This document shows, piece by piece, positions 5,678 through 21,632 of a stretch of 24,936 bases of DNA; position 1 is the first letter of the stretch; every line of letters starts with the position of its first letter. Both the position numbers and the translations under genes were made by a program. Location: positions 1 through 24,936 of the forward strand of contig CAYHAH010000054.1 of assembly GCA_964354575.1 (NCBI GenBank), read 5' to 3'. The stretch is from an uncultured bacterium (GTDB taxonomy: Bacteria > Margulisbacteria > WOR-1 > CAVSGV01). Below the pieces are notes generated by a model. That model did no database searches. It worked only from the letters and a program-made list of their open reading frames with translations, and had not been told where the DNA came from.

Positions 5678-6775
5678 ATGAGAAAAAATTCCTGGTTCGG
5701 TGTGCTGATCGTTTCCCTTTGCGTCCTGTCTCTTGCAGTCATTTATGGATGCGGCTCGAATCCGACTGGTGGCGGAGGCGGCGGCGGGGCTTCAGGGCGG
5801 CCTTATTACGGAATAGACAGTCTGGGAGATACCGTTAAATGCTCAATGACCGATACTACTTTCAGCTTGCATTTTGTGACCGGCACAATGGATGGGGTCA
5901 CACTTTCAGGTAAAATAACGCACCTTGCAAGCGGATTATTGAGCGGTGAAATAACAAACTCAAGTGATCCAGATAGGATCCCCCCAGGTGAAACTTTATA
6001 TGCATATGAGATAACCAATGAAGTCCTTGTGATCGGAGGAGGCCCTGAAAACCAGGGAATTATCATGATCTGCCCGGCCTTATCAAATATAGCGCCGTCT
6101 GCATGTACGGCTGAGGGCATAATGATCCCAAATACAAATTGGATTGGCAATCTGGTGGCATGTATGACTGTGGAATTAATAGGATCTAATTCTTACACAT
6201 TTGAGGTAGATCTCTTTGATGTGGCGGGAGCGTATCTGGATTCAACTTCCGAGTCTAATTATCATTTTACCGGAGAAAAGTTATATAAAGCCGATAAACC
6301 GCAGCTTTTCTTTTCCCCAAAGGGAATGTTCGCGGGAACAAACGGCAAACGTGATGGTATTAATTGGGATGACGGCGGGATCGCAGGCACCATGTATGAC
6401 AGCACTGTTTCGACGCTGGAGATCGCTGACGGCTCCCGCACTTATATTGGCATAGCCTTTGACAGGAACACCTTTGATGGTGATGATAAAACGAATATAA
6501 AAGCGATATTAGCCGAGTCATATGCGTCCACCCTTCTCAGAGTATCTTCAATGGATGTTTCGAGCGGCGCAGCGCTCGGCGAGCCAATGGGAACCATTGA
6601 AGTGGGAACGATGAATAATCCAAGCCAGGGGATAATTGACGCGTTATGCGATAGACAGGGAGATACTGTCCCGGCCAAGATGGTGGCATATAAGTATACA
6701 ACTGATAAATACGCCGTCTGCGGATTTACCACTCTCGAGACCGGACCGCTAAGCTTTTTTATCATAGAACAGTAA
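5678..6775 (+). CDS. Hypothetical lipoprotein
   Basis: Basic N-terminus, hydrophobic stretch, lipobox IYG-C (Cys25, 5750-5752), Gly7 linker, then a beta-rich body with no family I recognise. Confidence 0.78.
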   Translation: MRKNSWFGVLIVSLCVLSLAVIYGCGSNPTGGGGGGGASGRPYYGIDSLGDTVKCSMTDTTFSLHFVTGTMDGVTLSGKITHLASGLLSGEITNSSDPDRIPPGETLYAYEITNEVLVIGGGPENQGIIMICPALSNIAPSACTAEGIMIPNTNWIGNLVACMTVELIGSNSYTFEVDLFDVAGAYLDSTSESNYHFTGEKLYKADKPQLFFSPKGMFAGTNGKRDGINWDDGGIAGTMYDSTVSTLEIADGSRTYIGIAFDRNTFDGDDKTNIKAILAESYASTLLRVSSMDVSSGAALGEPMGTIEVGTMNNPSQGIIDALCDRQGDTVPAKMVAYKYTTDKYAVCGFTTLETGPLSFFIIEQ

Positions 6776-6792
6776 AGCGATATTTTATTGAT

Positions 6793-6832
6793 AAGGCCGA
6801 TCGGGCAGGGCGTCCGGTCGGCCTTTTTCTTT
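6793..6832 (+). terminator. Rho-independent terminator
   Basis: 14-bp stem AAGGCCGATCGGGC/GTCCGGTCGGCCTT (two G-U pairs), 5-nt loop, followed by TTTCTTT. Confidence 0.85.
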
Positions 6833-6835
6833 GCC

Positions 6836-6864
6836 TTGACAAAGACCTCCCCCGACCCTATAAT
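6836..6864 (+). promoter_or_regulatory. Consensus sigma70 promoter of the yceD-rpmF-fab operon
   Basis: Perfect TTGACA (6836-6841), 17-nt spacer, TATAAT (6859-6864). Confidence 0.9.
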
Positions 6865-6920
6865 CACCCTTTGTTTACCCGCCGAAGATTCGGCGCTTTG
6901 GCCGAACGAAGGAGGGTTTT

Positions 6921-7448
6921 ATGAAAATCGATGTCTCCGACCTGCTGAAGAGCTTCGGGGTTGAACTTAAGATCGACAGAAGCGAAACCCTATCTTTCCC
7001 TCCGGTTGGCGGGGCGGATAAGGAAGAAAGCCTAAACTTAACGTCCCCGGTTCAGGTCAAGCTTAAATTGATGAACACGGGAGACACGGTTTTAGTCTCC
7101 GGGACGCTTAAAACCAGAGTGAAGCTGTGCTGCTGCCGGTGCCTGAAGGAATTTGACTATCCTCTCAACATAGAAATAGAGGAAGAATACGGCAGGAAAA
7201 AAAGCGCGCTTCCGGGCTCAAAGGACGAAGAGATCGAGCTGAAGGAAAAAGACTTCGTTTTTGAGATAGGCGAAGACAACATAATAGACCTGGACGAAGC
7301 CATAAGACAGAATATAATTGTGTCCTTGCCGATCAAGCCGCTCTGCAGCAAGGCCTGCAAGGTAGCGGCGCCGGCCAGTGAGAATAAAAAAAGCATCGAT
7401 CCCAGGCTGGCGAAGCTGAAATCGTTTAAAATATTAGGAGGGAATTGA
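6921..7448 (+). CDS. yceD: YceD/DUF177 family protein
   Basis: CCRCL, IDLDEAIRQNII, PIKPLC, IDPRLAKL; canonical position before rpmF; SD AAGGAGG. Confidence 0.9.
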   Translation: MKIDVSDLLKSFGVELKIDRSETLSFPPVGGADKEESLNLTSPVQVKLKLMNTGDTVLVSGTLKTRVKLCCCRCLKEFDYPLNIEIEEEYGRKKSALPGSKDEEIELKEKDFVFEIGEDNIIDLDEAIRQNIIVSLPIKPLCSKACKVAAPASENKKSIDPRLAKLKSFKILGGN

Positions 7449-7449
7449 A

Positions 7450-7707
7450 ATGCCTGTACCGAAAAAAAGACACTCGAACACAAGGACCCGGACTAGACGC
7501 GCCAACTGGAAGCTGAAACCGCTGAACCTGGCGGATTGCCCGCAGTGCCACTCAAAGATCTTGTCCCATCATGCCTGCTCCGTATGCGGCACGTACAACG
7601 GAAGGATGGTCCTTAAAATAGAGACCGAGGAAAAGAAAAAACCTGCCAAAGGCAAGGCACATGAAGAAAAAGCCGAGGCAGGCAAAGAGGAGAAGCCCAA
7701 GCATTGA
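7450..7707 (+). CDS. rpmF: 50S ribosomal protein L32, zinc-ribbon type, with a charged C-terminal extension
   Basis: MPVPKKRHS...RR N-terminus, CPQC and CSVC; SD AGGAGG. Confidence 0.95.
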   Translation: MPVPKKRHSNTRTRTRRANWKLKPLNLADCPQCHSKILSHHACSVCGTYNGRMVLKIETEEKKKPAKGKAHEEKAEAGKEEKPKH

Positions 7708-8693
7708 TCCGCATAGCGCTGGACGCAATGGGCGGGGATCATGCGCCTTCTGAAACAATAAAAGGCGCGATCATGGCCATGTCCCTCCTGCCGAACATCG
7801 AAATTATCCTCATCGGACAGGAAGACCGCATATCAAAAGAACTGAAAAATAACAAACGCGTCTCCGGTATAAGCATTTATAATGCGAGCGAGGTCATCTC
7901 CACAAGTGAACATCCCATACAGGCGATAAAGCAGAAAAAAGATTCTTCCATCGTGAAAGGCGTGTCGCTGGTCAAAGAAGGAGGAGCGGATGCTTTTGTT
8001 TCCGCTGGCAATACCGGCGCCTTGATGGCTTCCTCCCTTTTCGGCCTCGGAAGAGTTTCCGGGATCGAAAGGCCCGCGCTGGCCACGATATTCCCCTCCA
8101 AAAAAGGAAGGGTGCTCCTGCTGGACATGGGCGCGAATGTTGACTGCAAGCCCAAGCACCTTGTCTATTTCGCAAAAATGGGGAGCGTTTACTCGGAACA
8201 TGTGCTGAAAATAAAAAATCCGAAGGTCGGGCTTTTGAACATCGGGGAGGAGCCCGAGAAAGGCAACGAGCTTACAACCTCCACCTATCCCCTGCTCAAG
8301 GGATCCGGCCTGAATTTTTCCGGAATGGTGGAAAGCAAGGAAGTATTCTCGGGAAAAGTGGATGTGGTCGTCTGCGACGGGTTCATCGGCAACCTGGTAT
8401 TGAAATTCGGGGAATCCACCGCGACTTTCATTTTTGAAATGCTGGCGGGCGAGCTGAAAAGCCATCCGCTTGCGGCAATGGTCGCGCTTTTCCTGATCCC
8501 CGCCCTGCTTCGGCTGAAAAAGAAAGTGGACTATGATGAATTCGGCGGCGCGGAGCTTCTGGGGATAAACGGCGTCGTCGTGAAAGCCCACGGAAGGGCG
8601 AAGTCGAAAGCCATAATGAACGCCATAAGGGTCGCCGCGGAATCAGTTGAAGGAAAAGTGGTCGATCACATTTCGAAGGTTGGTGAGGCTTAA
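7704..8693 (+). CDS. plsX: Phosphate acyltransferase PlsX
   Basis: IALDAMGGD, SAGNTGA, LLDMGANVD, GLLNIGEE, VKAHG; TTG start overlaps the rpmF stop (TTGA). Confidence 0.96.
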   Translation: MIRIALDAMGGDHAPSETIKGAIMAMSLLPNIEIILIGQEDRISKELKNNKRVSGISIYNASEVISTSEHPIQAIKQKKDSSIVKGVSLVKEGGADAFVSAGNTGALMASSLFGLGRVSGIERPALATIFPSKKGRVLLLDMGANVDCKPKHLVYFAKMGSVYSEHVLKIKNPKVGLLNIGEEPEKGNELTTSTYPLLKGSGLNFSGMVESKEVFSGKVDVVVCDGFIGNLVLKFGESTATFIFEMLAGELKSHPLAAMVALFLIPALLRLKKKVDYDEFGGAELLGINGVVVKAHGRAKSKAIMNAIRVAAESVEGKVVDHISKVGEA

Positions 8694-9659
8694 ATGAGAC
8701 GGGCTTCGATCATAGGCACCGGTTCTTATGTCCCCAGGAAGGTCCTGACGAATTTCGACATTGAAAAAATGGTCGACACAACCGATGAATGGATAATGGA
8801 GAGGACCGGCATCAGGGAGCGGAGGATCGCGGACGAGAGCGAAGCGACATCCGACCTCGCCTTTGAGGCGGCGCGCAGGGCCATTGAGTCGGCAAAGATC
8901 GATCCGAAGGAACTTGAACTGATCATCGTCGGCACTTCATCCCCGGACATGCTTTTCCCGTCCACCGCCTGCATCATCCAGGACAGGATCGGGGCGGTCA
9001 ACGCCGCCGCGTTCGACGCATCAGCGGCATGCACTGGATTCAATTACGCTCTTGCGGCAGCGGCAAGCTTCATTGAATCCGGCGTATATAATAATGTAAT
9101 GGTCATAGGAGCAGATACGCTGGCCAAATACCTGGACTGGACCGACAGGAACACATGCATTCTGTTCGGGGACGGAGCGGGCGCGGTCATTCTTAAGGCG
9201 GCCGATGGCGAAAGCGGGATCCTTGCCAGCTACCTGGGAGCGGAAGGAAGCGGAGGAAAATACCTTATCATGCCGGGGGGCGGCTCGCGCGATCCCGAAG
9301 CGAAAAAAAGGTTCATCCAGATGGACGGGAAGGAAGTTTTCAAGTTCGCCGTAAAGATCCTGCCGAAATGCGTCAAGGCGGTGCTTGAAAAAGCAAAACT
9401 GAAAACCTCCGACATCTCCCTGCTTATCCCTCACCAGGCAAACACAAGGATAATCGATTTCGCCTTGAGAAATTTGGGCTTGTCAAAAGAAAAGGTATAT
9501 GTTAACCTCGACCGATACGGAAACACCTCGGCAGCCTCAATCCCCATAGCGCTGGACGAAGCGTTAAAAGAAGGAAAGATAAAAAAAGGGGACATTGTCG
9601 TGCTTGCGGGATTCGGGGCGGGGCTGACATACGGCGCAAACGTCATAAAGTGGTCGTAA
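8694..9659 (+). CDS. fabH: Beta-ketoacyl-ACP synthase III
   Basis: Cys-His-Asn triad in AACTGF, IPHQAN and GNTSAAS; also GFGAGLT. Confidence 0.96.
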   Translation: MRRASIIGTGSYVPRKVLTNFDIEKMVDTTDEWIMERTGIRERRIADESEATSDLAFEAARRAIESAKIDPKELELIIVGTSSPDMLFPSTACIIQDRIGAVNAAAFDASAACTGFNYALAAAASFIESGVYNNVMVIGADTLAKYLDWTDRNTCILFGDGAGAVILKAADGESGILASYLGAEGSGGKYLIMPGGGSRDPEAKKRFIQMDGKEVFKFAVKILPKCVKAVLEKAKLKTSDISLLIPHQANTRIIDFALRNLGLSKEKVYVNLDRYGNTSAASIPIALDEALKEGKIKKGDIVVLAGFGAGLTYGANVIKWS

Positions 9660-9681
9660 AGGGTTTTAGGAGGTAAGGAAA

Positions 9682-10839
9682 ATGGATTACGGATTCACCG
9701 AAGAGCAGAAAATGGTCCAGGAACTGGCCAGGAAGATAGCTGTAGAGAAAGCGCTTCCCGTAAGGGCGGAACTTGACGAGAGCGGGGAATTTCCCTGGGA
9801 AGTCGTGAAAGCGCTCGCGGAATCAAACCTCACGGGGATCGGCATCGACGAAAAATACGGAGGGATCGGCGGAGGAACCCTTGAATACTGCATCGCTACC
9901 GAGGAGCTCAGCATCGTGTGCGGCGGCATCGCTCTTGCCTACGCGGCCACGGGCCTGGGGACAATGCCCATCATATTGTTCGGGAACGAAGAACAAAAAC
10001 AGAAATACCTTCCCGACATAGCCGCGGGGAAAAAGCTGGCCGCATTCGGCCTTACCGAGGCGAACGCCGGCTCGGACGCTGGAGGAATGCAGACGACCGC
10101 AAAAAAAGACGGGGATCATTTTATACTCAACGGCACGAAACAGTGGATAACCAACGGCGGCGAGGCGGAGACATACTCCGTGATCGCGATAACCGACAGG
10201 AAAAAGGGGTCGAGAGGCGCTTCCGCGTTCATACTCGAAAAAAACATGCCGGGATTCACTTTCGGCAAGAAAGAGAACAAGATGGGAATAAGGGCTTCCG
10301 CGACAAGGGAGCTGGTTTTCCAGGACTGCAAGGTCCACAAGAGCCAGATGCTCGGCAAGGAAGGAATGGGATTCATAGTCGCGATGAAGACGCTGGACAG
10401 GACAAGGCCGGGCATCGCGGCCCAGGCGGTTGGGATAGCCCAGGGAGCTCTTAATGAAGCCCTGAAATATTCGAGGCAGAGAGAGCAGTTCGGCGCCAAG
10501 ATAAGCACGTTCCAGGCGATACAGCACATGCTGGCTGATATGGCCACGCAGGTGGAGGCCGCAAGGTGTCTTGTGTACGCAACGGCGAGAGCGATCGACT
10601 CGGGATCCGCCGAAACATCAAAGATGTCCGCAATGTGCAAGCTCATGGCGTCGGATACCGCCATGAAAGTGACAACGGACGCGGTCCAGATACACGGGGG
10701 CTACGGCTACATGAAGGAATACCCCGTCGAGAAGATGATGAGGGACGCCAAGATCACCCAGATATACGAGGGCACCAACCAGATACAGCGCAACGTCATC
10801 GCCCTTGAACTGATCAAGGAGCTCGCAGCCAAGAAATAG
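9682..10839 (+). CDS. Acyl-CoA dehydrogenase (Bcd/CarC-like)
   Basis: FGLTEANAGSDA, NGTKQWITNG, KMGIRAS, QIHGGYGY, catalytic YEGTNQIQ; SD AGGAGGT. Confidence 0.93.
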   Translation: MDYGFTEEQKMVQELARKIAVEKALPVRAELDESGEFPWEVVKALAESNLTGIGIDEKYGGIGGGTLEYCIATEELSIVCGGIALAYAATGLGTMPIILFGNEEQKQKYLPDIAAGKKLAAFGLTEANAGSDAGGMQTTAKKDGDHFILNGTKQWITNGGEAETYSVIAITDRKKGSRGASAFILEKNMPGFTFGKKENKMGIRASATRELVFQDCKVHKSQMLGKEGMGFIVAMKTLDRTRPGIAAQAVGIAQGALNEALKYSRQREQFGAKISTFQAIQHMLADMATQVEAARCLVYATARAIDSGSAETSKMSAMCKLMASDTAMKVTTDAVQIHGGYGYMKEYPVEKMMRDAKITQIYEGTNQIQRNVIALELIKELAAKK

Positions 10840-10841
10840 CA

Positions 10842-11624
10842 ATGAACATCGTCGTCTGCATAAAACAGGTCCCCGGCACAACCCAGGTAAAGATCAATCC
10901 GGAAACCAACACGCTGATAAGGGAAGGCGTTGAGAGCATCATCAATCCCTTTGACGAGAACGCCGTTGAAGCGGCGCTTCAGTTGCGCGACAAGCACGGC
11001 GGAAAAGTAACCGTCATTACAATGGGCCCTCCGCAGGCCGTGAACGCATTGAAAGACACCATCGCGCTCGGCGTCGATGAAGCCATACTTGTTTCCGACA
11101 GGGCTTTTGCCGGCTCGGACACATGGGCAACATCATATACTCTCGCGTCGACAATAAAAAAACTCGGGGCTTTCGACCTTATCATCTGCGGCAAGCAGGC
11201 GATAGACGGCGACACCGCGCAGGTCGGGCCGGGCGTTTCCGAATTCCTCAAGATCCCCCAGGTCACTTTCGCGGTCGGAGTCGAGATAAATGACGGCGTC
11301 ATGAAAGTTAACCGGCTTCTCGAGGAAACGAACGAGATAGTTGAAGTGAAACTTCCGGCCCTTATCACGGTCGTAAAACAGATGAACACTCCAAGAATGC
11401 CTTCATTCAAGGGCAAGATCAAGGCAAAGAACGCGGCAATCCCGCAGTGGGGCGCAAAAGACATAAATGCCGATGAAAATTGCATAGGGCAAAAAGGCTC
11501 TCCCACTTCCGTCGTCAAGATATTCACCCCTCCTCCGAAAGGCGGCGGCGAGATCCTTCAGGGATCGGTTGACGAAATGGTTGATTCGCTGGTGAAAAAG
11601 CTCAGGGACAGGAAGGTCTGCTAA
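10842..11624 (+). CDS. etfB: Electron transfer flavoprotein beta subunit (bifurcating-type motifs)
   Basis: VCIKQVP, NPFDENAVEAA, GSDTWATS, CGKQAIDGDTAQVG. Confidence 0.95.
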   Translation: MNIVVCIKQVPGTTQVKINPETNTLIREGVESIINPFDENAVEAALQLRDKHGGKVTVITMGPPQAVNALKDTIALGVDEAILVSDRAFAGSDTWATSYTLASTIKKLGAFDLIICGKQAIDGDTAQVGPGVSEFLKIPQVTFAVGVEINDGVMKVNRLLEETNEIVEVKLPALITVVKQMNTPRMPSFKGKIKAKNAAIPQWGAKDINADENCIGQKGSPTSVVKIFTPPPKGGGEILQGSVDEMVDSLVKKLRDRKVC

Positions 11625-12821
11625 ATGGGCATCAGGATAATTAACGACAAGTGTTTCGGATGCAAGCTGTGCATAGCGGCGTGCCCTCTTGGCGCCATCA
11701 AGGTTGAAAATAAAAAAGCCGTAATAGACCTGGACAAGTGCAACCTGTGCGGAGCGTGCCCCTCTTCCTGCAAATTCGGCGCCATCGAGATAACAAAGGA
11801 AGACGTCAATGTTGTCGACAAGAGCCAATATAAAGGCATCTGGGTCTTCGCCGAACAGTACGAAGGCAATGTGCATCCGGTCGCGCTGGAGCTTCTCGGA
11901 GAGGGAAGGAGGCTCGCAAAAGATCTCGGCGTGGAACTGTGCGCGATGCTTCTCGGGGACTCAAGCGTAGAGAAAGAAACAAAAAAGCTCATAGAATACG
12001 GCGCGGACAAGGTTTATGTGGCGACCGCTCCGGAGCTCGCGCACTACACGACCCTCCCCTATTCAACGGTCATATCCGACATGATAAGGCAGTACAAGCC
12101 CGAGATAGTGCTTTTCGGCGCAACAACCACCGGAAGGGACCTTGCATCCCGGATAGCCGCGCGCATAAACGCGGGGCTTACGGCCGACTGCACCGGGCTT
12201 GCGATAGACAAGGAAACCAGGCTCCTTCAGCAGACGCGTCCCGCGTTCGGCGGCAATATCATGGCCACGATCATATGCAAGAACCACAGGCCGCAAATGT
12301 CCACCGTCAGGCCGAAGGTCTTTAAGCGCGCTGTTCCCGACAATTCAAGAAAGGGGCAGGTGATCAAGTTCGCTCCGAAGATAGGCCGGGACGATCTGAT
12401 CGTGAAGATCGTCGATGTTATAAAGGACGCAACGGTCAAGGTCAATCTGTCCGAAGCCGAAATAATAGTTTCCGGCGGAAGAGGGCTTCAGGCGCCGGAG
12501 AATTTCAAGCTTGTCGAAGAACTCGCCGAGGTGATAGGCGGAGCCGTGGGAGCTTCCCGCGCCACGGTCGATGCCGGCTGGATCTCCTCGCACCATCAGG
12601 TGGGACAGACGGGAAAGACGGTGTGCCCGAAACTCTACATAGCCGTCGGGATATCCGGAGCCATACAGCACCTCGCAGGCATGGGGTCATCCGAAATGAT
12701 CGTCGCGATCAACAAGGATCCGGACGCCCCGATATTCAAGGTAGCGACTTACGGCATCGTGGGCGACCTTTTCGAAGTTGTCCCGAAACTCACAAGTAAG
12801 CTGAAAGAGGTAAGAGGATAA
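11625..12821 (+). CDS. etfA: Electron transfer flavoprotein alpha subunit with N-terminal 2x[4Fe-4S] ferredoxin domain
   Basis: [12 protein letters not shown] and [11 protein letters not shown], followed by [37 protein letters not shown]. Confidence 0.95.
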
Positions 12822-12833
12822 AGTGTTGATTAT

Positions 12834-12900
12834 GGAACCTGAGGCTGAAAGCCTCGGTTCCAAATAAATATCGGAACCGCGACTTTTAGTCGCAGGTTCC
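12834..12900. repeat. Second REPIN-like element: inverted pair of 28-nt bulged hairpins
   Basis: GGAACC-T-GAGGCT-GAA-AGCCTC-GGTTCC (12834-12861), 11-nt spacer, then a reverse copy reading GGAACC-T-GCGACT-AAA-AGTCGC-GGTTCC on - (12873-12900). Confidence 0.75.
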
Positions 12901-12920
12901 CTTCTAGAAAGGTTTTATAA

Positions 12921-13874
12921 GTGGCAAAAATAGCATTCGTATTTCCCGGGCAGGGTTCCCAGTATGTCGGCATGGGCAAAGACCTTGTGGCAAAATTCAG
13001 CTACACAAAAAAGTTCTTTGACGAGGCCAATGATTCTCTTGGCTTTGATCTTTCAAAGCTTTGCTTTGAGGGGCCGGATGAGGATCTCAAAAAAACGGAA
13101 AACACCCAGCCGGCGATATTGACGGTGTCAGCTATGTGCCTTGAAGCGCTGAAGTCATTCGGGAAAATAAGTGTCGAAGCGGCCGCGGGGCACAGCCTCG
13201 GGGAATATACCGCCCTGTATGCCGCGGGGTCCCTTAGCTTCAGGGACGCCGTAAAACTCGTCAATTCGCGCGGAAAGTTCATGCAGACAGCGGTGCCTCT
13301 CGGGGAAGGAACAATGGCCGCCATCCTGGGGCTTGATCATAATGTGGTGAAAGAAATATGCGCCAGGGCATCTTCAAAGGGAATAGTTGAAGCGGCCAAT
13401 ATCAACAGCCCTGGACAGATAGTTATATCGGGCAAGGCAGCCGGAGTTGCCGAAGCTTCCAGGCTGTGCAAGGAAGCCGGCGCAAAAAGGGTGATCGCGC
13501 TTCAGGTCAGCGCGCCTTTCCATTCAAGTTTGATGAAACCCGCGGCCGACCAACTGGCGGCGGAGCTTGATAAGATCAGCATAAAAGACGCTTCCATACC
13601 GGTGGTTTCAAACGTTACGGCGGATTACGTGACAGCCGCGGGCGCTATAAAAGAGCTGCTCATAAGACAGATGACATCCCCCGTCCTGTGGGAGGACTGT
13701 GTGAACAAAATGACGAACGACGGATTTGACACATTCATCGAGATCGGTCCGGGCAAAGTGCTTGCGGGGCTGATAAAGAAGGTCAATCCTAAAGCAAAGA
13801 TATATAATGTAGGCGATGCCGCGACCCTCGGGGATTTTTTGGGCAGCTGGCATCCGAGCGAAGGAGGTAAATAA
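12921..13874 (+). CDS. fabD: Malonyl CoA-ACP transacylase
   Basis: FPGQGSQ, TQPAIL, GHSLGEY, VSAPFHS, EIGPGKVL; GTG start. Confidence 0.96.
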   Translation: MAKIAFVFPGQGSQYVGMGKDLVAKFSYTKKFFDEANDSLGFDLSKLCFEGPDEDLKKTENTQPAILTVSAMCLEALKSFGKISVEAAAGHSLGEYTALYAAGSLSFRDAVKLVNSRGKFMQTAVPLGEGTMAAILGLDHNVVKEICARASSKGIVEAANINSPGQIVISGKAAGVAEASRLCKEAGAKRVIALQVSAPFHSSLMKPAADQLAAELDKISIKDASIPVVSNVTADYVTAAGAIKELLIRQMTSPVLWEDCVNKMTNDGFDTFIEIGPGKVLAGLIKKVNPKAKIYNVGDAATLGDFLGSWHPSEGGK

Positions 13875-13876
13875 AC

Positions 13877-14614
13877 ATGAAACTTAAAGGACGGGTAGCT
13901 TTTGTAACAGGCGCGGCTCAGGGAATAGGGAGATCGATTGCGGAAGCTCTGGCAAAAGAAGGAGCGGACGTGATAATTTCCGACATCAATATGGACGCGG
14001 CGAAAGTGACCGCGGGTGAGATCGGAAAACTCGGAGTGAAAGCGATCGCGCTGAAAACGAATGTTGCGGACGGCAGCGATGTCGCGGCTTCGGTCGAGCA
14101 GGCGGTCAAGGAATTCGGGAAAATAGACATATTGATAAACAACGCGGGAATAACAAGGGACGGACTCTTGATAAGGATGAAAGAGGATGACTGGGATGCG
14201 GTGATCTCGGTAAACCTTAGATCTATGTTCCTTTGCGCGAAAGCCATAGCCCCCTTGATGATGAAAAACAGGTGGGGTAGAATACTTAACATAGCATCGA
14301 TAGTTGGTGAAATGGGAAATTTTGGACAAGCGAATTACTCGGCTGCAAAAGCCGGGGCAATAGGCCTTACTAAAACGATAGCCAGGGAGCTTGCCTCCCG
14401 CGGCATTACCTGCAATGCCATAGCGCCCGGCTTTATCGACACGGCCATGACGCAAAAGCTATCAGACGATGTCAAGAAAAAATTAAGCGAACAGATCCCC
14501 CTTACGAGGCTGGGGGCTCCGGAAGATATAGCTAAAGCCGTCGTGTTCTTGTGCGCTGACGCGGACTATGTGACCGGGCAAGTGCTGAACGTAAACGGCG
14601 GCATGTACATGTAG
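13877..14614 (+). CDS. fabG: 3-oxoacyl-ACP reductase
   Basis: TGAAQGIG, NNAGITRD, YSAAK, NAIAPGFIDT, NVNGGMYM; SD AAGGAGGT. Confidence 0.96.
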   Translation: MKLKGRVAFVTGAAQGIGRSIAEALAKEGADVIISDINMDAAKVTAGEIGKLGVKAIALKTNVADGSDVAASVEQAVKEFGKIDILINNAGITRDGLLIRMKEDDWDAVISVNLRSMFLCAKAIAPLMMKNRWGRILNIASIVGEMGNFGQANYSAAKAGAIGLTKTIARELASRGITCNAIAPGFIDTAMTQKLSDDVKKKLSEQIPLTRLGAPEDIAKAVVFLCADADYVTGQVLNVNGGMYM

Positions 14615-14647
14615 TTTAGTGTTTAGGATTTCGAATTTAGGATTTTT
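14615..14647 (+). repeat. Degenerate heptamer tandem repeat
   Basis: TTTAGTG-TTTAGGA-TTTCGAA-TTTAGGA-TTTTT, directly after the fabG stop. Confidence 0.55.
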
Positions 14648-14671
14648 AAACGAAGGGGGTGAGAAACGTAA

Positions 14672-14917
14672 ATGGATGAATCAAAAGTTTTCGATCAGGT
14701 GAAGAAGGTAGTGGTCGATCAGCTTGGCGTGTCTGAGGACGAAGTGAAAAGAGAAGCTTCCTTCGTTGATGACCTTGGCGCCGACTCGCTGGATACAGTG
14801 GAGCTGGTCATGGCGCTTGAAGAAGCGTTCACAATGGAGATACCGGACGAAGAAGCGGAAAAGATCAAGACAGTAGGCGATACCGTGAACTATGTTTTGT
14901 CTCACTCAAAAAAGTGA
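14672..14917 (+). CDS. acpP: Acyl carrier protein
   Basis: [18 protein letters not shown] phosphopantetheine motif; acidic, 81 aa. Confidence 0.97.
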
Positions 14918-14993
14918 GGTCCGTTTCGGGATGATTGGATCGGAGGTCCTTTAATGGGATTTCGAGAATTGATCTTTAGTGGGAGGAAAGAAC

Positions 14994-15953
14994 TTGGAGC
15001 TTCCTGAGCTTAAAATTGGGAACCTTGTGGCAAAAATACCTATAATACAGGGCGGCATGGCGGTCAAGATATCAACAGGCCTGCTTGCGGGGACCATTGC
15101 TGCCGCCGGCGCTATAGGCGTGATCGGCGCTTCCGGAATGGACCTTGCAGAGCTAAGGGAAGAGATAAGGAAGGCAAAAGAGATCGCGAAGGGCGGACTG
15201 GTCGGGATAAACATAATGTTCGCCGCGAGGGAATTCCTCGGAGCGGTGAACACCGCGATAAGCGAAAAGATCAGTTTCATAACGACCGGTGCCGGGTTCT
15301 CCAGGGACATCTTCAAGATAGGAAAGGAATCCAACACTCCCATACTCCCGATAGTGTCGTCCGCAAAGCTGGCGAAGACGGCGACAAAATGCGGCGCCGC
15401 CGCAATAGTCGTGGAAGGGGTGGAAGCGGGCGGGCACCTGGGAACGGACAGGTCGATCGAAGTCATACTTCCGGAAGTCAGGGCTGTCACCGACCTTCCG
15501 GTCATCGCGGCCGGCGGAATAACGGACGGCTGCGACATCGTAAAGATGTTCCGCCTCGGGGCGAACGGCGTCCAGATAGCGACGAGGTTCGTCCTGACGA
15601 ACGAGTGCGCCGCGGCTCCGGAATACAAAAAGATCTATCAAAACGCGAAAAAAGAGGATGTCGTGCTGATATCAAGTCCTGTCGGAATGCCGGGGCGGGC
15701 CATAAAAACGAAGTTCGTCGAAAAGATACTCAATAAGACAGCTCCAAAGCCGATCGGATGCGATTACTGTCTGAAAAAATGTTCCCTCGAATACTGCATT
15801 GTTCAGGCTCTCATCAATTCGCAGCAGGGCAACGTCGACGAGGGGATAGTCTTCTCGGGCGACCATATCTGGAAAATAAAGGACAAGAGGATACGCCCTG
15901 CGGTTGAAGTGTTGAGCGAGCTTGTGAAAGAGGCCGAAGAATGCAAAGAGTGA
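14994..15953 (+). CDS. FabK/FabX-like FMN oxidoreductase (nitronate monooxygenase superfamily) with C-terminal four-Cys motif
   Basis: LKIG...[49 protein letters not shown]. Start placed at TTG 14994, 7 nt after GGAGG. Confidence 0.85.
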
Positions 15954-17185
15954 GAGTGGTCGTAACAGGCCTTGGATGCGTCACCCCGATCGGGATCGGG
16001 AAAGACGCGTTCTGGAACAATTTGATCTCCGGCAAGTCGGGGATCGGCAGGATCACGCTTTTCGATCCGACAAATTTTTCCTGCCAGATAGCCGCGCAGG
16101 TGAAGGATTTTGATCCCTCCCTGTACATGGACAAAAAGGATTCAAGGCGGATCGTGCGCTTCATACAATTCGCCATTGCCGCGGCAAAGATCGCGATCGC
16201 GGACGCGAAACTGTCCATAACGCCCGAAAACGCGGATCGCGCCGGCACCCTGATAGGATCGGGCATTGGCGGAATAGCTTTCCTTGAGGAACAAGCCAGG
16301 GCTCTTTTTGAAAAAGGCCCGGATAAATGCTCGCCCTTCATGGTCCCGTGGATGATAACGAACATGGCTGCCGGGCAAGTCTCGATATTTCTCGGCCTGA
16401 AAGGGCCGAACAGCTGCACCGTTACCGCGTGCGCGACGGGAACTAATTCCATAGGCGACGCCGCCAGAATAATCGAGCGCGGAGATGCCGATATAATGGT
16501 CGCCGGCGGGGCGGAAGCTGCCATTTCACCTCTCGGCATTGCCGGGTTTGCCGCCGCGAGAGCCCTCTCAACAAGGAACAACGATCCAGAGCACGCATCC
16601 AGGCCCTTTGACAGGGAAAGGGACGGATTCGTGATGGGTGAAGGCGCCGGAATTGTCGTTCTTGAATCGCTCGAACACGCTGTCAGGCGGGGCGCGAACA
16701 TTTACGCCGAACTTGCCGGATACGGAATGTCAGGCGACGCGCACCACATCACTGCTCCAGCTCCCGGCGGGGAAGGAGCAGTAAGGGCAATGGCCCTGGC
16801 CATAAAGGATGCCGGGCTCAAGCCTGAAGACATAGATCACATAAACGCTCACGGAACATCGACAGACCTGAATGACAAGTACGAGACAATGGCGATCAAG
16901 GCACTCTTCGGCGATCGCGCGAAAAAGATAGCGGTAAGCTCCAACAAATCCATGGTAGGGCACATGCTCGGAGCCGCCGGGGCCGTGGAGTTCATCTCTA
17001 CGGTGCTGACGCTAAAAAACGACATTGTCCCGCCGACAATAAACCTTGAGAACCCTGATCCGGAATGCGATCTGGATTATGTGCCGCTTAAAGCAAGGAA
17101 AATGCTTGTGCGCGCCGCGATCTCAAATTCGTTCGGATTTGGAGGGCACAACGCAGTAATTGCTGCAAAAAAAATTAAGATCTAG
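15941..17185 (+). CDS. fabF: Beta-ketoacyl-ACP synthase II
   Basis: [41 protein letters not shown]. Confidence 0.96.
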
Positions 17186-20100
17186 TTTTATCGTCCGCGC
17201 AGGTCTTCTCGCGACCGGATGTCTCCTGTTTGTCTTGTTTTTAAATGCCCCCGTGTTTTCCGCCGAAACTTATCCGCAGATCGATGTTACGGGTTACAAG
17301 CAATATACGTACACCGGGCTAAATGTCGACGAAATGGCGAACCTGTTCCAGGCGCAGGCGATGCTGGGCGGGTATTACGCGGGCGGACCGTGGCAGGAAA
17401 AATTGAAACTGCGCATAATCGGAAAGTTGACCGAAAAACTCTCCGTGTCATATGATCTCGAACAGCAGCCTGACATGCCGGACAAATTTGACGTAAAGGT
17501 CAGATATGACAAGACGGAATTGACCTTCGGGGATTTTCAGGCTAACTTCAGCAAAAATGAATTTGTCTCGACTTCCAAGTATTTGAACGGCGTCATGGTC
17601 ACATCTTATGATAACTGGTACGATCTCACGTTCGTTCCTTCTTCAAAACTGAAAAGCGAGACGCAGCGTCTCGTGTCACAAAGAGGCAATAACACAAAGG
17701 GCCCTTATAACCTGGGTCACGTCTCTATAATCGAGGGGTCCGAAAGAATTGAGCTGAACAACGTCCTGCTCAATTCCGATTCGGATTATACAATAGACTA
17801 CTTTGCCGGAAAGATAACCTTCTCCAGAATACTCTCTCCTTACGATGAATTCAAATATTCTTACGAATTCACCAACCTGATCGACCTGTTCTTTCCGACT
17901 GTCTCAAAAAGGGATTTTGTCGGCTTGCAAACAAGCATAACGGTCAGTCCCACGCTCCTCGGCATGCCGGCTCAAAAAACGGAAAAATCAATAAAGAAAA
18001 GGACGGAGGTCTTTCCGACAAATGTTGAGCTCCCGTTGCTGCCGGCCATAAAAGGGACGGTGACCATTTCGCCGGAGGCGAAAGCCGGAGCATATGCAAT
18101 TTACATCAATGATGTTCCTGCCCTGACCGTTCATCAATTATCAGGCGAAACGCAGGCATACATAAGGGCGAATTCAATAAAGAAAAATCTTGATTTGATA
18201 ATAGGATCCGGCATAACGACATTCGAAATAACCGCCGTGCTCGTGAACGGGGAAAAGGTCCTTGCGGTGAACGGCCGTCCCATTATTACGGTGCTGGGAT
18301 CGGAAGCGAAATATTCCGGCCTGTCAATCAAAGACCTTGCGGAAAAGTGGAGGAGCGGCATCGCAGCGGGGCTTGAGGCATACATGGGAGTGGCCGCAAA
18401 GCCGGCCGCCCCCGAAGCGGCCCTCAAAGAAGAATATCAATGGGAAAGCACCGGGAATTACAGGCTGAAGGAATCTCCCGTCATTCCGTACAGCGAAAAG
18501 GTGACTTTCCTGGGGAGCCAGTTAAAAAAGCTGGAAGATTACATTATCAATTATCAAGACGGGTCGATCACGCTGCTTCGTCCCAACCTCCCCACCGCTA
18601 CAGAGCCGCTGATCATTGAATACCAATATATCGAAGTTACCGAGGAATCTCAGGTCCTGCCCGGCGCCGGAAAGGGTCCGTACGCCCTTTCTTTCAAGGA
18701 TATAGTTGAAGAAAGCGAAACGGTTACCGTGAATAATATTCCTTACATCAGGGAGCTGGATTACAAGATAGACTATGACCTCGGCAGGATCATGTTCTTT
18801 GCCGACATTCCGCAAACAGCAAAGATCGTTGTCAAATATAAACACCTTGTTACCACATCGCCTCCCCCTTCTCCCGCGCCTGTCGTGCCGCGTTCGTTAA
18901 ATGTCGGCGTCAGTTATTTGAAAGAATCCGGCCAAAGAGGGGCAACGCCGCCGAGCGTTGCCGCCATGGATACAATATCCGGCAGTGAAATAATAATCAA
19001 CAATAACACCATATATCTGGATTTAAGGCCCGTGACCTCCACCGGTGAGGTTGAGGTAAGAAGGAATAATATATTACAGGTATACGGCGTAGATTATGTG
19101 TTCCCCACGGTTGAGGCGTCCACGGGCATTGTTATCCCGGCGACAAAGCTCGCATACATAACCGATCCCGCGGACGTCTCTGACGGACTAAAGACGGGCA
19201 CGATCAAATTTCTCGTAGCGCCCGCCGGAACGGACGAAGTCACGGTCAGCTATGATTACAGCAAATGGTCCTCCGACCGCTACAGCGGCTCGGGGATCAG
19301 CAGCACCAGGACTTACTATCTGGGGGGTTTCCGGAACCTTGTCCCCGGCGCGGAAGAAGTGCAGATATGGAGAAAGAACGTCCCCAATCCCGTAATAAAG
19401 AGACTGACTAGGAACAGCAGCATCGAGGTTTTCGACGGGCATTATTTCATCAATTACACCGATCCGCCGAACATCACTTTCAACAATGATCCGATAGTCG
19501 TTGACGGCGAGACCTTCTACCTGAATGACATCAATTTCACCGTGATCTTCAAGTTCGTGGCGCAGTCAAGCGCTTCGGAGGCCCCCATATCGCACGATGT
19601 CATCGGATCCGATTTCAGCTTGCAGGTCGGCGATTATATGAAATTCGGGGGCGCGTTCGCCAGATCGAAAACCGACCAGATATTCACGACCGTAAGCACG
19701 AATGAGACGTTCAGCGGCGACGCGACGACCAAGATCTTTAACTTGAAGAGCCCCGGCCAGATCATTGACGGGAGCGAACAGATTTTCCTGAACGGCCAGA
19801 AGCTGAACAGGGACGATCAATATTCTTTCTTTTACAATGCGAATTCCTCGGGAAAGTACGGCGTCCTGACCTTTTTCATAATAACCCCCGTGACCGCCGA
19901 TGTCGTTTCCGTTGATTACAGTTACCAGAGCACTGCGGGGGTCGTGACCTCTGTAAGCGAAAAACAAGGCAGCGCATATAAACTTAACGGAATGATCAAG
20001 CCGCTTCCGAACGTGGAGTTTTCCGGCGATTACAAGAAAATAGACGCTGATTTCACTCCGATGGGCGGCACATCCATTCCCATAGGGAGCGATTTCAGTC

Positions 20101-21632
20101 ACGCATACACGAAAATAACCCCGTTCCCGAGTTTCTGGTCCAGTCTCTGGTTTTCCGGCGACATAAAAGAAAGCAACGTTCCCATAAGCAACTATCCCGA
20201 TAAATTCCTGCACGCCCACGACAGGAATCTGTCGGCCGGGTTCAACCCGCAGGGATTGGCGCAGGTTGACATGAATTTCAGGGGATACGACACCCTGGAC
20301 GATCTTCTGCCGGCAAGCACGACGCACAATAACGATTTTAAATCCTCTGCCTATTCGGTCAGCGTGGTTCCCCGTTCAGTGAGCTTGGGAGCGTTCAATT
20401 TTTCCAACAGGAGCAACGCCAGCAAGTCCCTGTCTTACACCGACACTGAGGACAAGACGCTGCCGAAGGATTCGATAACCGATTACTATCACACAAATAA
20501 CGTTTTTGGCTTCACCGAAAGGGCCAAATGGATACTTGATTATCAGGTGAACCTGCCGAGCACCATATCATACGAGGCGGGCAGCAGATCGCGGGGGAAA
20601 ACTGTGCAGAGGAATGAGGCCAACGACCTGAGCTCCAACTTTAATCTTGACCTTACCTTCACCGGCGTGAAAAGACTTTACACATACTGGAACAAAATAG
20701 GCCACAATGATTACGATTTCATATTGGGGACCTCAAAATCGACCATTAACGAAACTTATCACGCCGACTTTGTGCCGATAGATCAATTAACCACAAGCGT
20801 GGATCACAACCGCCAGGAAATTCCGACAGTCACCACCGCTTACGGAAACCCGAAGACCGAGCGCTCGTCCGCAGATATCAGGCTCACTCCCTTCTCAACG
20901 ACATTGCTCGGCTGGTCGGGATCGATAGACGATTCTCTTCAGGAGAACGGCGCGATGGCTTCCGGCAATGCGAACGCGTATTCCATTTCACATACGCCTA
21001 TTTCAGCCTCAAATTACAAATTGACAACAGCATATAATCTTTCAACAAGCTTAAGGAACGGCCCGGTGGGGACCGCAGAGGTGACTACGGACACAAGATC
21101 GTTCAGCCAGGACTACAACCTGACCGTGACCCCCTCCAGCATCTTGACAATAACTTCGGGTCTCGGGCAGGAGGACTACACAAATATAAATAATGCTCCC
21201 ACCTCCCCTGTCAACACCAAATCCCAAAGCCAGACGATAAGGGCCGGATCTTCCTATAAAGCGTTAACCGACCTGAACCTCTCCGGAAATTACAGCGTAA
21301 AGGTCACGAGAACGCCTGACCAGAGCGCCCACAAGTCATTGGTCGACGCGCACGCCGTTTACATGGTGTTCACATACGGAACCTTGAACTACGACTGGTC
21401 GCAGGAGGATAACGGCGGTGAAATTCTCGGCGGCTCTTTCGTTGACCAGGATTTCACGAAGATATTGCAGTCGCTCTCCCTGAATGTAGTGATGCCGCAG
21501 AGCAATCAAATGATCCTCTCCAGCGTCGTGCTCAGGGCCGCCATCAAGTGGGCGGACTTCAAGGACAGGAACACTCCCGCGAACAGCTTCCAGGCAACGC
21601 TTCTCTCGTTTGAAGGAACGTTCAACTTCTAG
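17160..21632 (+). CDS. 1490-aa predicted outer-membrane beta-barrel protein with internal SE-x-V...DY-x-IDY-x2-G-x-I-x-F repeats
   Basis: Signal peptide ending ...PVFSA; long C-terminal run of amphipathic beta-strands; terminal ...FEGTFNF. The TTG start is uncertain (GGAGG 13 nt upstream). Confidence 0.72.

What the first reader, a model, noticed from the sequence alone, without database searches (positions are those of the whole stretch)
6836..17185. Integrated hypothesis: a redox-self-contained anaerobic fatty acid synthesis/desaturation operon
Seen: one consensus promoter and no clear terminator across yceD to fabF, with two Fe-S flavo-modules that are not standard FAS II parts. Inference: together they could form a loop. 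Electrons from FabX-like desaturation of acyl-ACP could pass via the EtfA ferredoxin domain to the ACAD, or ferredoxin reduced by bifurcation could drive the Fe-S FabK-like reductase. Either would be an unusual link between lipid synthesis and ferredoxin metabolism. fabZ and acc genes are not in the window, so the pathway cannot be closed from this sequence.
Basis: inference. Interest (0 to 1): 0.75.

Follow-up and report, generated by a model that had tools for sequence, protein, structure and literature searches.

The report
Fatty-acid operon with flavoprotein enoyl reductase
This uncultured anaerobe's fatty-acid synthesis operon carries an acyl-CoA-dehydrogenase/electron-transfer-flavoprotein trio that most likely replaces the usual enoyl reductase FabI, plus a separate FabX-like iron-sulfur flavoenzyme, but the two modules do not depend on each other.

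Summary
A perfect sigma-70 promoter (6836-6864) follows a strong terminator. It is followed by twelve tightly packed genes: yceD-rpmF-plsX-fabH-ACAD-etfB-(Fd)etfA-fabD-fabG-acpP-NMO(4Cys)-fabF, with no convincing internal terminator.

The proposed closed redox loop is not supported.
- In relatives the same cluster exists without the ACAD-etfBA insert. Those genomes have FabI, keep the 4-Cys NMO gene between acpP and fabF, and have no ETF.
- ACAD-etfBA sits in fab clusters of about ten phylum labels, mostly without any NMO gene.

What the data support is that ACAD plus the CarDE-like, bifurcating-type Etf is the enoyl-ACP reductase.
- In 211 genomes of two phyla, 118 have the ACAD ortholog and 77 have FabI. 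None has both (one marginal hit).
- Near-complete relatives have a single ACAD. They have no crotonase, no Hbd, no FabV, and no FabK over the curated cut-off.

The NMO protein keeps FabX's catalytic His and four cluster cysteines. It is most likely the unsaturated-fatty-acid branch enzyme, but a ferredoxin-dependent reductase role is not excluded.

This scan has noted the ACAD/Etf-in-fab pattern before on other DNA. No paper describing it was found. Nothing here is shown biochemically.

The parts
6793..6825 (+). Intrinsic terminator of the upstream gene (14-bp stem, 9 GC pairs, T-run)
   Evidence: sequence
6836..6864 (+). Consensus sigma-70-type promoter TTGACA-17-TATAAT (12/12)
   Evidence: it is the only perfect match in 11.4 kb and sits in the intergenic gap before yceD
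6921..7448 (+). yceD (DUF177, large-subunit rRNA accumulation protein)
   Evidence: Pfam PF02620, 80.5 bits
7450..7707 (+). rpmF (ribosomal protein L32)
   Evidence: Pfam PF01783
7704..8693 (+). plsX (phosphate acyltransferase)
   Evidence: TIGR00182, 380 bits, over cut-off
8694..9659 (+). fabH (ketoacyl-ACP synthase III)
   Evidence: NF006829, 462 bits, over cut-off
9682..10839 (+). ACAD-family flavoprotein, Bcd-like; candidate enoyl-ACP reductase subunit
   Evidence: Three ACAD Pfam domains. Best solved relative is C. difficile Bcd 5OL2_C at 425 bits. Only ACAD in the genome. Mutually exclusive with FabI. Fab-linked in 34 of 80 closest loci.
10842..11624 (+). etfB, bifurcating-type (group 2) Etf small subunit
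   Evidence: 251-267 bits to CarD 6FAH_B, 4KPU_B and 5OL2_B, against <=93 bits to canonical ETFs
11625..12821 (+). etfA with N-terminal 2x[4Fe-4S] ferredoxin domain (CarE-like)
   Evidence: Aligns 1-395 to CarE 6FAH_A 1-393, 456 bits. Pfam Fer4 x2 + ETF + ETF_alpha. Two CxxCxxCxxxC motifs are visible in the alignment.
12834..12900 (+). Pair of REP-like hairpins in the etfA-fabD gap (possible attenuator or stabiliser; dispersed repeat)
   Evidence: fold -40.7 kcal/mol, z = -5.5; 12 pattern matches, 11 of them clear hairpin copies, genome-wide
12921..13874 (+). fabD (malonyl-CoA:ACP transacylase)
   Evidence: TIGR00128, 380 bits, over cut-off
13877..14614 (+). fabG (3-oxoacyl-ACP reductase); the only classical SDR found in this genome
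   Evidence: TIGR01830, 330 bits; SDR census
14672..14917 (+). acpP (acyl carrier protein)
   Evidence: TIGR00517, 116 bits
14994..15953 (+). NMO-family FMN protein with a FabX-like four-Cys cluster site (NMO4C). The likely start is the TTG at 14994 behind a GGGAGG ribosome-binding site; the longest ORF starts at 14979.
   Evidence: PF03060. FabK model 189 bits against a cut-off of 453. Alignment to FabX and FabK. H153 and C261/C264/C268/C273 invariant in 35 homologs and kept in distant relatives. AF2 pLDDT 90. Foldseek TMq 0.86-0.87 to FabX and 0.79-0.82 to FabKs. Start site.
15941..17185 (+). fabF (ketoacyl-ACP synthase II); overlaps the NMO gene by 13 nt
   Evidence: TIGR03150, 655 bits, over cut-off

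Best explanation
The stretch is the core FAS II operon of an anaerobic bacterium of the Margulisbacteria/Saganbacteria phylum. The usual NADH-dependent enoyl-ACP reductase FabI has been replaced by a three-gene module. This module comprises a Bcd-like acyl-thioester dehydrogenase (ACAD), an EtfB of the bifurcating type, and a CarE-like EtfA carrying two [4Fe-4S] clusters.

Inferred mechanism. NADH reduces the EtfB flavin. One electron goes by way of the EtfA flavin to the ACAD flavin. After two rounds, the ACAD flavin reduces trans-2-enoyl-ACP made by FabZ. The other electron leaves at low potential through the EtfA ferredoxin domain to ferredoxin.

The 4-Cys NMO protein between acpP and fabF is a separate, older resident of the cluster. 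It is a FabX-like FMN/[4Fe-4S] enzyme. Most likely it makes the cis-3-enoyl-ACP branch intermediate for unsaturated fatty acids, by dehydrogenation/isomerisation or by isomerisation of FabZ's product.

The two modules are independent units, not an obligate loop.

What is shown: gene content, synteny, phyletic patterns, conserved cofactor ligands.
What is inferred: the ACP-bound substrate, bifurcation, and the reaction of the NMO enzyme.
For: (1) Context. Among the 80 closest ACAD loci in 185,579 species genomes (65-79% identity), 34 lie in or beside fab genes, under about ten phylum labels. At least four different insertion points occur: fabH|fabD, after fabF, plsX|fabD, and after fabF-rnc.

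(2) Displacement of FabI.
- Own phylum, 110 genomes >=80% complete: ACAD in 69, FabI in 33, both in 0. No taxonomic family mixes the two.
- Nitrospirota, 101 genomes: ACAD in 49, FabI at >=224 bits in 44, both in 0, plus one marginal 151-bit hit.

(3) Natural experiment. f39 genomes have the identical cluster minus ACAD-etfBA, plus FabI elsewhere and no ETF.

(4) No other reductase.
- Of 34 fab-linked genomes, a true FabI occurs in 1.
- FabV is found in 0, though that search had no positive control.
- FabK over its cut-off is found in 0, and 8 genomes have no NMO gene at all.
- The complete Omnitrophota chromosome G007 has one SDR (FabG), no NMO, and one ACAD.

(5) Not a butyrate enzyme. G000 and four near-complete genomes have a single ACAD, no crotonase, and no real Hbd. 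The closest Bacillota homologs are not in butyrate operons either.

(6) Etf type. It scores 251-267 bits (EtfB) and 322-456 bits (EtfA) against five experimentally bifurcating Etfs, and <=93 and <=179 bits against canonical ones. The CarE-like Fd domain aligns over its full length. A full-length Fd-EtfA ortholog is present in 31 of 34 fab-linked genomes even where ACAD stands alone in the cluster.

(7) NMO protein.
- The catalytic His and four Cys align with FabX H182 and C300/304/308/320 (PMC8626469) and are conserved down to 36% identity.
- It co-occurs with another reductase candidate (ACAD or FabI) in 67 of 72 genomes.
- No FabA/FabB-type second dehydratase, no crotonase-fold FabM, and no desaturase was found in the five genomes examined.
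Against: - There is no biochemical, genetic or expression evidence.
- Nothing in the ACAD sequence was shown to favour ACP over CoA thioesters. Its closest solved relatives are short-chain Bcds.
- The phyletic patterns come from related genomes, so the counts overstate independence. FabI lineages may also differ in lifestyle (aerobic versus anaerobic), which could confound the exclusion.
- Outside the two phyla sampled, 6 of 81 ACAD-bearing genomes do have a true FabI.
- FabL was excluded only by an SDR census in five genomes.
- Matheus Carnevali et al. 2019 judged these Etfs non-bifurcating (PMC6349859). Similarity to bifurcating Etfs is not proof of bifurcation.
- For the NMO enzyme, identity to FabX is only 33-34%, about the same as to FabKs.
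- Two genomes (G048, G081) have the NMO gene but neither ACAD nor FabI.
- F. nucleatum FabX partly compensates FabK inhibition (PMC11091888), so a reductase role is possible.
- Net FabX-type dehydrogenation lacks an obvious high-potential acceptor in an anaerobe.
Confidence: 0.58

Rival explanations
1. First reader's loop. The FabX-like enzyme and the ACAD-Etf module exchange electrons directly. In one version, desaturation electrons reach ACAD through the EtfA ferredoxin domain. In the other, bifurcation-reduced ferredoxin drives the NMO protein as a reductase. Either way the operon is redox self-contained.
For: Both modules are co-transcribed from one promoter in this genome. They co-occur, about 5 kb apart, in 62 of 110 genomes of the phylum. 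An anaerobic FabX-type dehydrogenation needs an acceptor near the enoyl/acyl potential, and another enoyl reduction would supply one (inference).
Against: The NMO gene keeps its acpP-fabF slot in 5 genomes that have FabI and no ETF or ACAD. ACAD-etfBA is fab-linked in many phyla with no NMO gene. Seven genomes of the phylum have ACAD without NMO. By analogy with CarE, the Fd domain belongs to the low-potential exit branch (own knowledge).
Confidence: 0.1
2. The 4-Cys NMO protein is the real enoyl-ACP reductase: a FabK variant fed by ferredoxin through its cluster. ACAD-EtfAB does something else and is only a passenger in the operon.
For: The fold and the catalytic His are shared with FabKs. 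FabK occupies a similar slot in Firmicute clusters (own knowledge). G048 and G081 have the NMO gene but no ACAD or FabI. Overexpressed F. nucleatum FabX gives partial resistance to a FabK inhibitor.
Against: It is ACAD, not NMO, that excludes FabI: 0 of 118 ACAD-bearing genomes have FabI, whereas 5 genomes have both FabI and NMO. ACAD-bearing genomes without NMO or FabI exist, including the complete genome G007. No alternative substrate pathway for the single ACAD exists. The NAD(P)H site of FabK is replaced, and the FabK model scores 189 bits against a cut-off of 453.
Confidence: 0.12
3. Both are enoyl-ACP reductases with a division of labour (for example by chain length, or by NADH versus ferredoxin supply), and unsaturated fatty acids are made in another way.
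For: Many bacteria carry two reductases (own knowledge). Neither activity is known. The ACAD's nearest solved relatives are short-chain enzymes.
Against: The cluster site is FabX-like rather than a nucleotide site. No other known unsaturated-fatty-acid enzyme was found in the five genomes examined.
Confidence: 0.12
4. ACAD-EtfAB is an ordinary butyryl-CoA dehydrogenase/Etf of fermentation, as annotated for Margulisbacteria and Saganbacteria in the literature. Its place in the fab operon is accidental.
For: 57-60%-level similarity to clostridial Bcd and Etf structures; reading of Matheus Carnevali et al. 2019.
Against: No crotonase and no Hbd in G000 and four near-complete genomes. Fab linkage recurs at different insertion points in about ten phylum labels. 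There is strict exclusion with FabI.
Confidence: 0.05

Closest known systems
CarCDE, the caffeyl-CoA reductase-Etf complex of Acetobacterium woodii (PDB 6FAH)
   Same: Same three-gene order: ACAD, EtfB, then EtfA with an N-terminal 2x[4Fe-4S] ferredoxin domain. The EtfA aligns end to end with CarE at 456 bits, and the EtfB with CarD at 267 bits.
   Different: The ACAD is closer to Bcd (425 bits) than to CarC (341 bits). The module sits inside a FAS II operon in a genome with no CoA-ester pathway that could feed it. The presumed substrate is enoyl-ACP, which is untested.
Bcd-EtfAB, the electron-bifurcating butyryl-CoA dehydrogenase of Clostridioides difficile and Acidaminococcus fermentans (PDB 5OL2, 4KPU/4L1F)
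   Same: It is the nearest solved ACAD, and its Etf is of the bifurcating type. The reaction class is the same: NADH-dependent reduction of a trans-2-enoyl thioester coupled to ferredoxin reduction.
   Different: Those EtfAs have no ferredoxin domain. They belong to butyrate operons with crt, hbd and thl, which are absent here.
FabI (and FabK, FabL, FabV), the known FAS II enoyl-ACP reductases
   Same: The inferred role is the same. FabI and the ACAD ortholog replace each other in 211 genomes.
   Different: There is no homology: FabI, FabL and FabV are Rossmann-fold enzymes and FabK is a TIM-barrel enzyme, whereas this is an ACAD fold with an Etf partner. The reaction may also yield reduced ferredoxin.
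FabX of Helicobacter pylori (PDB 7E1Q), an FMN/[4Fe-4S] acyl-ACP dehydrogenase/isomerase
   Same: NMO TIM barrel, catalytic His, and four Cys in the C-terminal subdomain at aligned positions. It gives the best query-normalised structural match, TMq 0.86-0.87. Like FabX, the gene accompanies a separate reductase.
   Different: Only 33-34% identical. It is about 40 residues shorter. The Cys spacing is C-x2/3-C-x3-C-x4-9-C instead of C-x3-C-x3-C-x11-C. It lives in strict anaerobes where O2 cannot be the acceptor. It is fixed between acpP and fabF.
FabK (TIGR03151), the FMN- and NAD(P)H-dependent enoyl-ACP reductase II
   Same: Same fold and length, same catalytic His, 29-33% identity.
   Different: It scores 189 bits against a cut-off of 453. 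The region that binds NAD(P)H in FabK carries the four-Cys motif instead.

Membership tests
Bifurcating ACAD-EtfAB complexes (Bcd-EtfAB / CarCDE) | ACAD subunit with N, middle and C domains and the catalytic Glu in the YEGT motif | tested here: met
   Pfam PF02771/PF02770/PF00441. IYEGT is conserved in the alignment to 5OL2_C and 4L1F.
Bifurcating ACAD-EtfAB complexes (Bcd-EtfAB / CarCDE) | EtfB of the FAD-binding (group 2) type rather than the AMP-binding type | tested here: inconclusive
   By similarity only: 218-267 bits to five bifurcating EtfBs against 72-93 bits to canonical ones. No residue-level motif test was done. Matheus Carnevali 2019 stated the opposite for this lineage.
Bifurcating ACAD-EtfAB complexes (Bcd-EtfAB / CarCDE) | CarE-type N-terminal ferredoxin domain with eight Cys for two [4Fe-4S] clusters | tested here: met
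   Pfam Fer4 x2. Two CxxCxxCxxxC motifs align with CarE residues 1-60.
Bifurcating ACAD-EtfAB complexes (Bcd-EtfAB / CarCDE) | A pathway supplying an enoyl-CoA substrate (crotonase and Hbd, or a phenylacrylate CoA pathway) | tested here: not met
   ECH_1 found in 0 of 5 genomes. 3HCDH_N gives only partial Rossmann hits of <=28 bits.
Bifurcating ACAD-EtfAB complexes (Bcd-EtfAB / CarCDE) | NADH-dependent ferredoxin reduction coupled to enoyl-thioester reduction | not testable with these tools
   Needs an enzyme assay.
FAS II enoyl-ACP reductase (functional class) | Encoded with the fab genes and present where no other reductase is | tested here: met
   Synteny. Exclusion with FabI in 211 genomes. 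No FabI, FabK or FabV in most of the 34 genomes.
FAS II enoyl-ACP reductase (functional class) | Acts on ACP-bound trans-2-enoyl substrates from C4 to C16 | not testable with these tools
   Needs an enzyme assay with ACP-bound substrates.
FabX (H. pylori-type dehydrogenase/isomerase) | NMO-family FMN TIM barrel with the catalytic His (H182) | tested here: met
   PF03060. H153 aligns with H182 and is invariant in 35 homologs. AF2 model and Foldseek.
FabX (H. pylori-type dehydrogenase/isomerase) | Four Cys ligating a [4Fe-4S] cluster in the C-terminal subdomain (C300, C304, C308, C320) | tested here: met
   C261/C264/C268/C273 lie at aligned positions with a shorter last loop. Cluster binding itself is untested.
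FabX (H. pylori-type dehydrogenase/isomerase) | Sequence identity above 50% to H. pylori FabX (criterion used in PMC8626469) | tested here: not met
   33-34% identity in the structural alignment.
FabX (H. pylori-type dehydrogenase/isomerase) | FabX-specific ACP-contact residues (R164, T130, basic helix alpha7) | not tested
   No FabX sequence was available as a file for residue mapping.
FabK (TIGR03151) | Score over the curated equivalog cut-off | tested here: not met
   189.3 bits against 453.1.
FabK (TIGR03151) | C-terminal NAD(P)H-binding region | tested here: inconclusive
   The aligned segment of C. difficile FabK has no Cys and differs in length. PMC8626469 states that the FabX cluster domain replaces the FabK NAD(P)H motif. 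No direct structural test was done.

The most novel reading that the evidence does not exclude
The last step of every fatty-acid elongation cycle in these anaerobes is carried out by a flavin-based electron-bifurcating ACAD-EtfAB complex acting on enoyl-ACP. Lipid synthesis would then generate reduced ferredoxin, which published genomes of related anaerobic lineages suggest could be used by Rnf or group 4 hydrogenases. The complex would be a fifth class of FAS II enoyl reductase, unrelated to the other four, and found in FabI-lacking anaerobes of many phyla. Alongside it, the 4-Cys NMO protein would be an anaerobic FabX-type enzyme. Its cluster would keep the flavin reduced for redox-neutral trans-2/cis-3 isomerisation, or would link the enzyme to the same ferredoxin pool.
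Probability: 0.3. Interest if true: 0.9.

Novelty: new variant of a known kind. Interest (0 to 1): 0.72.

Why it matters
Enoyl-ACP reductase is the pace-setting and best-drugged step of bacterial fatty-acid synthesis. Only four enzyme families are known for it.

A fifth family, an Etf-coupled reductase of the ACAD fold, would explain how large groups of uncultured anaerobes that lack all four make lipids. These groups include Margulisbacteria/Saganbacteria, Omnitrophota, and about half of the sampled Nitrospirota.

It would add a biosynthetic reaction to the short list of electron-bifurcating systems. It would also change how 'Bcd/EtfAB' genes are read in metagenome-based metabolic reconstructions, where they are currently taken as evidence of butyrate fermentation.

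The 4-Cys NMO enzyme poses the open question of how FabX-type chemistry runs without oxygen.

Tried and rejected
- Complex prediction of an ACAD dimer with AcpP gave no verdict. It is not used as evidence either way.
- Public sequencing runs: no RNA holder was listed, so co-transcription could not be examined. Only wetland and sediment DNA runs held part of the stretch.
- I guessed that the recurrent neighbours of ACAD in Nitrospirota were efp-accB-accC. Pfam showed a phosphoribosyltransferase, QueD/PTPS and PmbA/TldD instead, so those loci are not lipid-linked.
- The FabV search (PF12241) found nothing in 34 genomes, but also nothing in the 14 control genomes, so it has no positive control.
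- The [FeFe]-hydrogenase family (PF02906) was not found in five genomes. Ferredoxin sinks are therefore taken only from the literature on this lineage: Rnf and group 4 NiFe hydrogenases (PMC6349859).
- Literature searches found no paper describing an ACAD/Etf in FAS II. They covered combinations of enoyl-ACP reductase, ETF, bifurcation, ACAD and fab genes. The library lacks most subscription journals.
- Garcia Costas 2017, which holds the Etf motifs, was not held, so no motif-level test of bifurcation was made.
- Mean identity across fab-linked loci is higher for ACAD (70%) than for FabF (58%) or FabG (56%). The loci were chosen by ACAD similarity, so this is biased and not used as an argument.

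Full report
**What is there**

The window is contig C54 of a 0.9 Mb, 71%-complete metagenome-assembled genome. Its proteins are closest to Margulisbacteria/Saganbacteria.

On the + strand, a strong terminator (6793-6825) is followed by the only perfect TTGACA-17-TATAAT match in the region (6836-6864). A tight gene array follows:
- yceD, rpmF, plsX and fabH
- an acyl-CoA-dehydrogenase-family gene (ACAD, 9682-10839)
- etfB
- an etfA with an N-terminal two-cluster ferredoxin domain
- fabD, fabG and acpP
- an NMO-family gene (likely start TTG 14994)
- fabF

Terminator-like hits inside the array are at chance level and lie in coding sequence. The only sizeable gap, etfA-fabD, holds two very stable hairpins without a U-tract. 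These belong to a dispersed REP-like repeat. No terminator follows fabF, and a 1490-aa secreted-protein ORF overlaps its end.

The genes it could not find are present elsewhere. FabZ, fused to LpxA in an lpxC-fabZ/lpxA-lpxB cluster, is on C56. AccA and AccD are also present.

**The ACAD-Etf module**

The EtfB and EtfA score far higher against the five structurally characterised bifurcating Etfs than against canonical ETFs:

| Subunit | Bifurcating Etfs (CarDE 6FAH, 4KPU, 5OL2, 7KOE, 7QH2) | Canonical ETFs |
|---|---|---|
| EtfB | 218-267 bits | <=93 bits |
| EtfA | 322-456 bits | <=179 bits |

The EtfA matches CarE end to end, including both CxxCxxCxxxC motifs. The ACAD is nearest to C. difficile Bcd.

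Matheus Carnevali et al. 2019 saw these genes in Margulisbacteria and Saganbacteria. They read them as a probably non-bifurcating Bcd/EtfAB and did not mention the fab context.

**Is it a butyrate enzyme?**

G000 and four near-complete genomes were examined, three from the same phylum plus one complete Omnitrophota chromosome. In all five:
- there is exactly one ACAD, the fab-linked one
- there is no crotonase-fold protein (the control search hit 13 of 14 reference genomes)
- there is no real 3-hydroxyacyl-CoA dehydrogenase

The only enoyl thioester these cells can make is FabZ's enoyl-ACP. The closest Bacillota homologs also sit among housekeeping genes, not in butyrate operons.

**Synteny across phyla**

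The 80 closest ACAD loci among 185,579 species genomes are 65-79% identical. Thirty-four are in or beside fab genes. They carry about ten phylum labels:
- Margulisiibacteriota and Saganbacteria
- Omnitrophota
- Nitrospirota
- Thermodesulfobacteriota
- Edwardsiibacteriota
- Firestoneibacteriota
- MAGs labelled Myxococcota, Pseudomonadota and Actinomycetota

At least four insertion points occur:
- fabH|fabD with etfBA
- after fabF with etfBA
- plsX|fabD without etf
- after fabF-rnc

The ACAD tree follows taxonomy rather than context. Where ACAD stands alone in the cluster, a full-length Fd-EtfA ortholog is usually elsewhere in the genome (31 of 34 genomes).

**Displacement of FabI**

| Sample | Genomes | ACAD ortholog | FabI | Both | Neither |
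|---|---|---|---|---|---|
| Own phylum (>=80% complete) | 110 | 69 | 33 (224-314 bits) | 0 | 8 |
| Nitrospirota (independent sample) | 101 | 49 | 44 | 0, plus one 151-bit marginal hit | 8 |

In the own-phylum sample no taxonomic family contains both types.

Among the 34 fab-linked genomes from many phyla:
- a true FabI occurs once
- FabV was never found, though that search had no positive control
- FabK over its cut-off was never found
- eight genomes have no NMO-family gene at all

The complete 1.1 Mb Omnitrophota chromosome has one SDR (FabG), no NMO gene and one ACAD. The second SDRs in two relatives look like sugar-acid dehydrogenases, not FabI or FabL.

Counter-examples exist outside these samples. 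Six of 81 ACAD-bearing genomes have FabI. The counts also come from related genomes, so they overstate independence.

**The natural experiment that decides the 'loop'**

Five genomes of family f39 carry rpmF-plsX-fabH-fabD-fabG-acpP-NMO4Cys-fabF. This is the same cluster without the ACAD-etfBA insert. They have FabI and no ETF at all. Two conclusions follow:
- ACAD-EtfBA and FabI are the alternates.
- The 4-Cys NMO enzyme is an older, independent resident that needs neither Etf nor ACAD.

Conversely, ACAD-EtfBA works in many genomes with no NMO gene. Within the phylum the two co-occur often: 62 genomes have both, 7 have ACAD only, 10 have NMO only. This follows shared ancestry and is broken both ways.

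**The NMO protein**

- It scores 189 bits on the FabK equivalog model, whose cut-off is 453.
- It aligns about equally with FabK and FabX.
- It keeps the catalytic His (H153, equivalent to FabX H182).
- It carries four Cys (C261/264/268/273) at the positions of the FabX cluster ligands C300/304/308/320 (PMC8626469).
- These residues are invariant in 35 homologs and are kept down to 36% identity, with spacing C-x2/3-C-x3-C-x4-9-C.
- A confident AF2 model (pLDDT 90) matches FabX best when normalised by the query (TMq 0.86-0.87, against 0.79-0.82 for FabKs), at 33-34% identity.

The five genomes examined have one FabZ, no FabA-type paralog, no crotonase-fold FabM and no desaturase. This protein is therefore the only candidate of a known kind for introducing the double bond. 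It almost always accompanies another reductase candidate (67 of 72 genomes).

I therefore favour a FabX-like branch-point role. Because O2 is not available, the chemistry may be redox-neutral isomerisation of FabZ's trans-2 product with a reduced flavin, or it may use an unknown acceptor. This is inference.

A ferredoxin-dependent reductase role remains possible. G048 and G081 have the NMO gene but neither ACAD nor FabI. F. nucleatum FabX partly offsets FabK inhibition.

**Prior knowledge and novelty**

Six full-text searches found no paper describing an ACAD/Etf as part of FAS II. The library is incomplete.

This scan has noted the ACAD/Etf-in-fab pattern at least 17 times on other genomes. 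Later checks there gave modest odds for the reductase reading and cautioned about Desulfobulbus.

New here:
- the strict FabI exclusion in two phyla
- the with-insert and without-insert cluster pair within one phylum
- the absence of any CoA-ester pathway
- the demonstration that the 4-Cys NMO enzyme is independent of the Etf module

**Verdict**

- Observation: confirmed.
- Interpretation: partly supported. The modules are real and unusual, but the self-contained loop is not supported.
- Best explanation: an Etf-coupled, probably bifurcating, ACAD-type enoyl-ACP reductase replacing FabI, plus an independent FabX-like Fe-S flavoenzyme.
- All functional statements are inferences from comparative genomics. 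None is shown biochemically.

Noticed in passing
window 12834-12900; also G000 contigs C82, C86, C95, C100, C117, C125, C132: GGAACC...GGTTCC hairpin units of about 28 nt, often in pairs about 10 nt apart. There are 12 matches to the pattern in 0.9 Mb, 11 of them clear hairpin copies. The inner stems differ but stay complementary, so this is a dispersed REP/REPIN-like family. One pair fills the etfA-fabD gap.
   Followed up: partly
window 17160-21632: A 1490-aa ORF whose TTG start overlaps the end of fabF by 26 nt. It has an N-terminal signal peptide and no Pfam family apart from a sub-threshold DUF2460 hit. It may be co-transcribed with the fab operon.
   Followed up: no
G000 contig C56 (L001 1168-2460): FabZ is fused to LpxA in one 430-aa protein, inside an lpxC-fabZ/lpxA-lpxB cluster. 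The same long open frame (429-464 aa) is seen in four other genomes, including an Omnitrophota chromosome.
   Followed up: partly
L012, L015, L016, L019, L024, L057, L067 (Bacillota and unlabelled MAGs): The closest Bacillota ACAD-etfB-(Fd)etfA trios sit among housekeeping genes (spoIIR, pseudouridine synthase, G6PD, asd, prkA) rather than in butyrate operons. Four of the Bacillota genomes also have FabI, so the module's role there is open.
   Followed up: partly
G090 C1 1417052-1417746 (closest complete relative): The fabG of the nearest single-contig relative is interrupted by an in-frame TGA. This could be an assembly error, a pseudogene or recoding.
   Followed up: no
G048 and G081 (L095, L096): Two genomes of the phylum (97% and 90% complete) have the 4-Cys NMO gene but neither the ACAD ortholog nor FabI. 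They are the best places to ask whether the NMO protein can be the sole enoyl reductase.
   Followed up: no
window 5678-6775 and 22750-23943: Two ORFs of 365 and 397 aa with no Pfam family flank the operon region.
   Followed up: no
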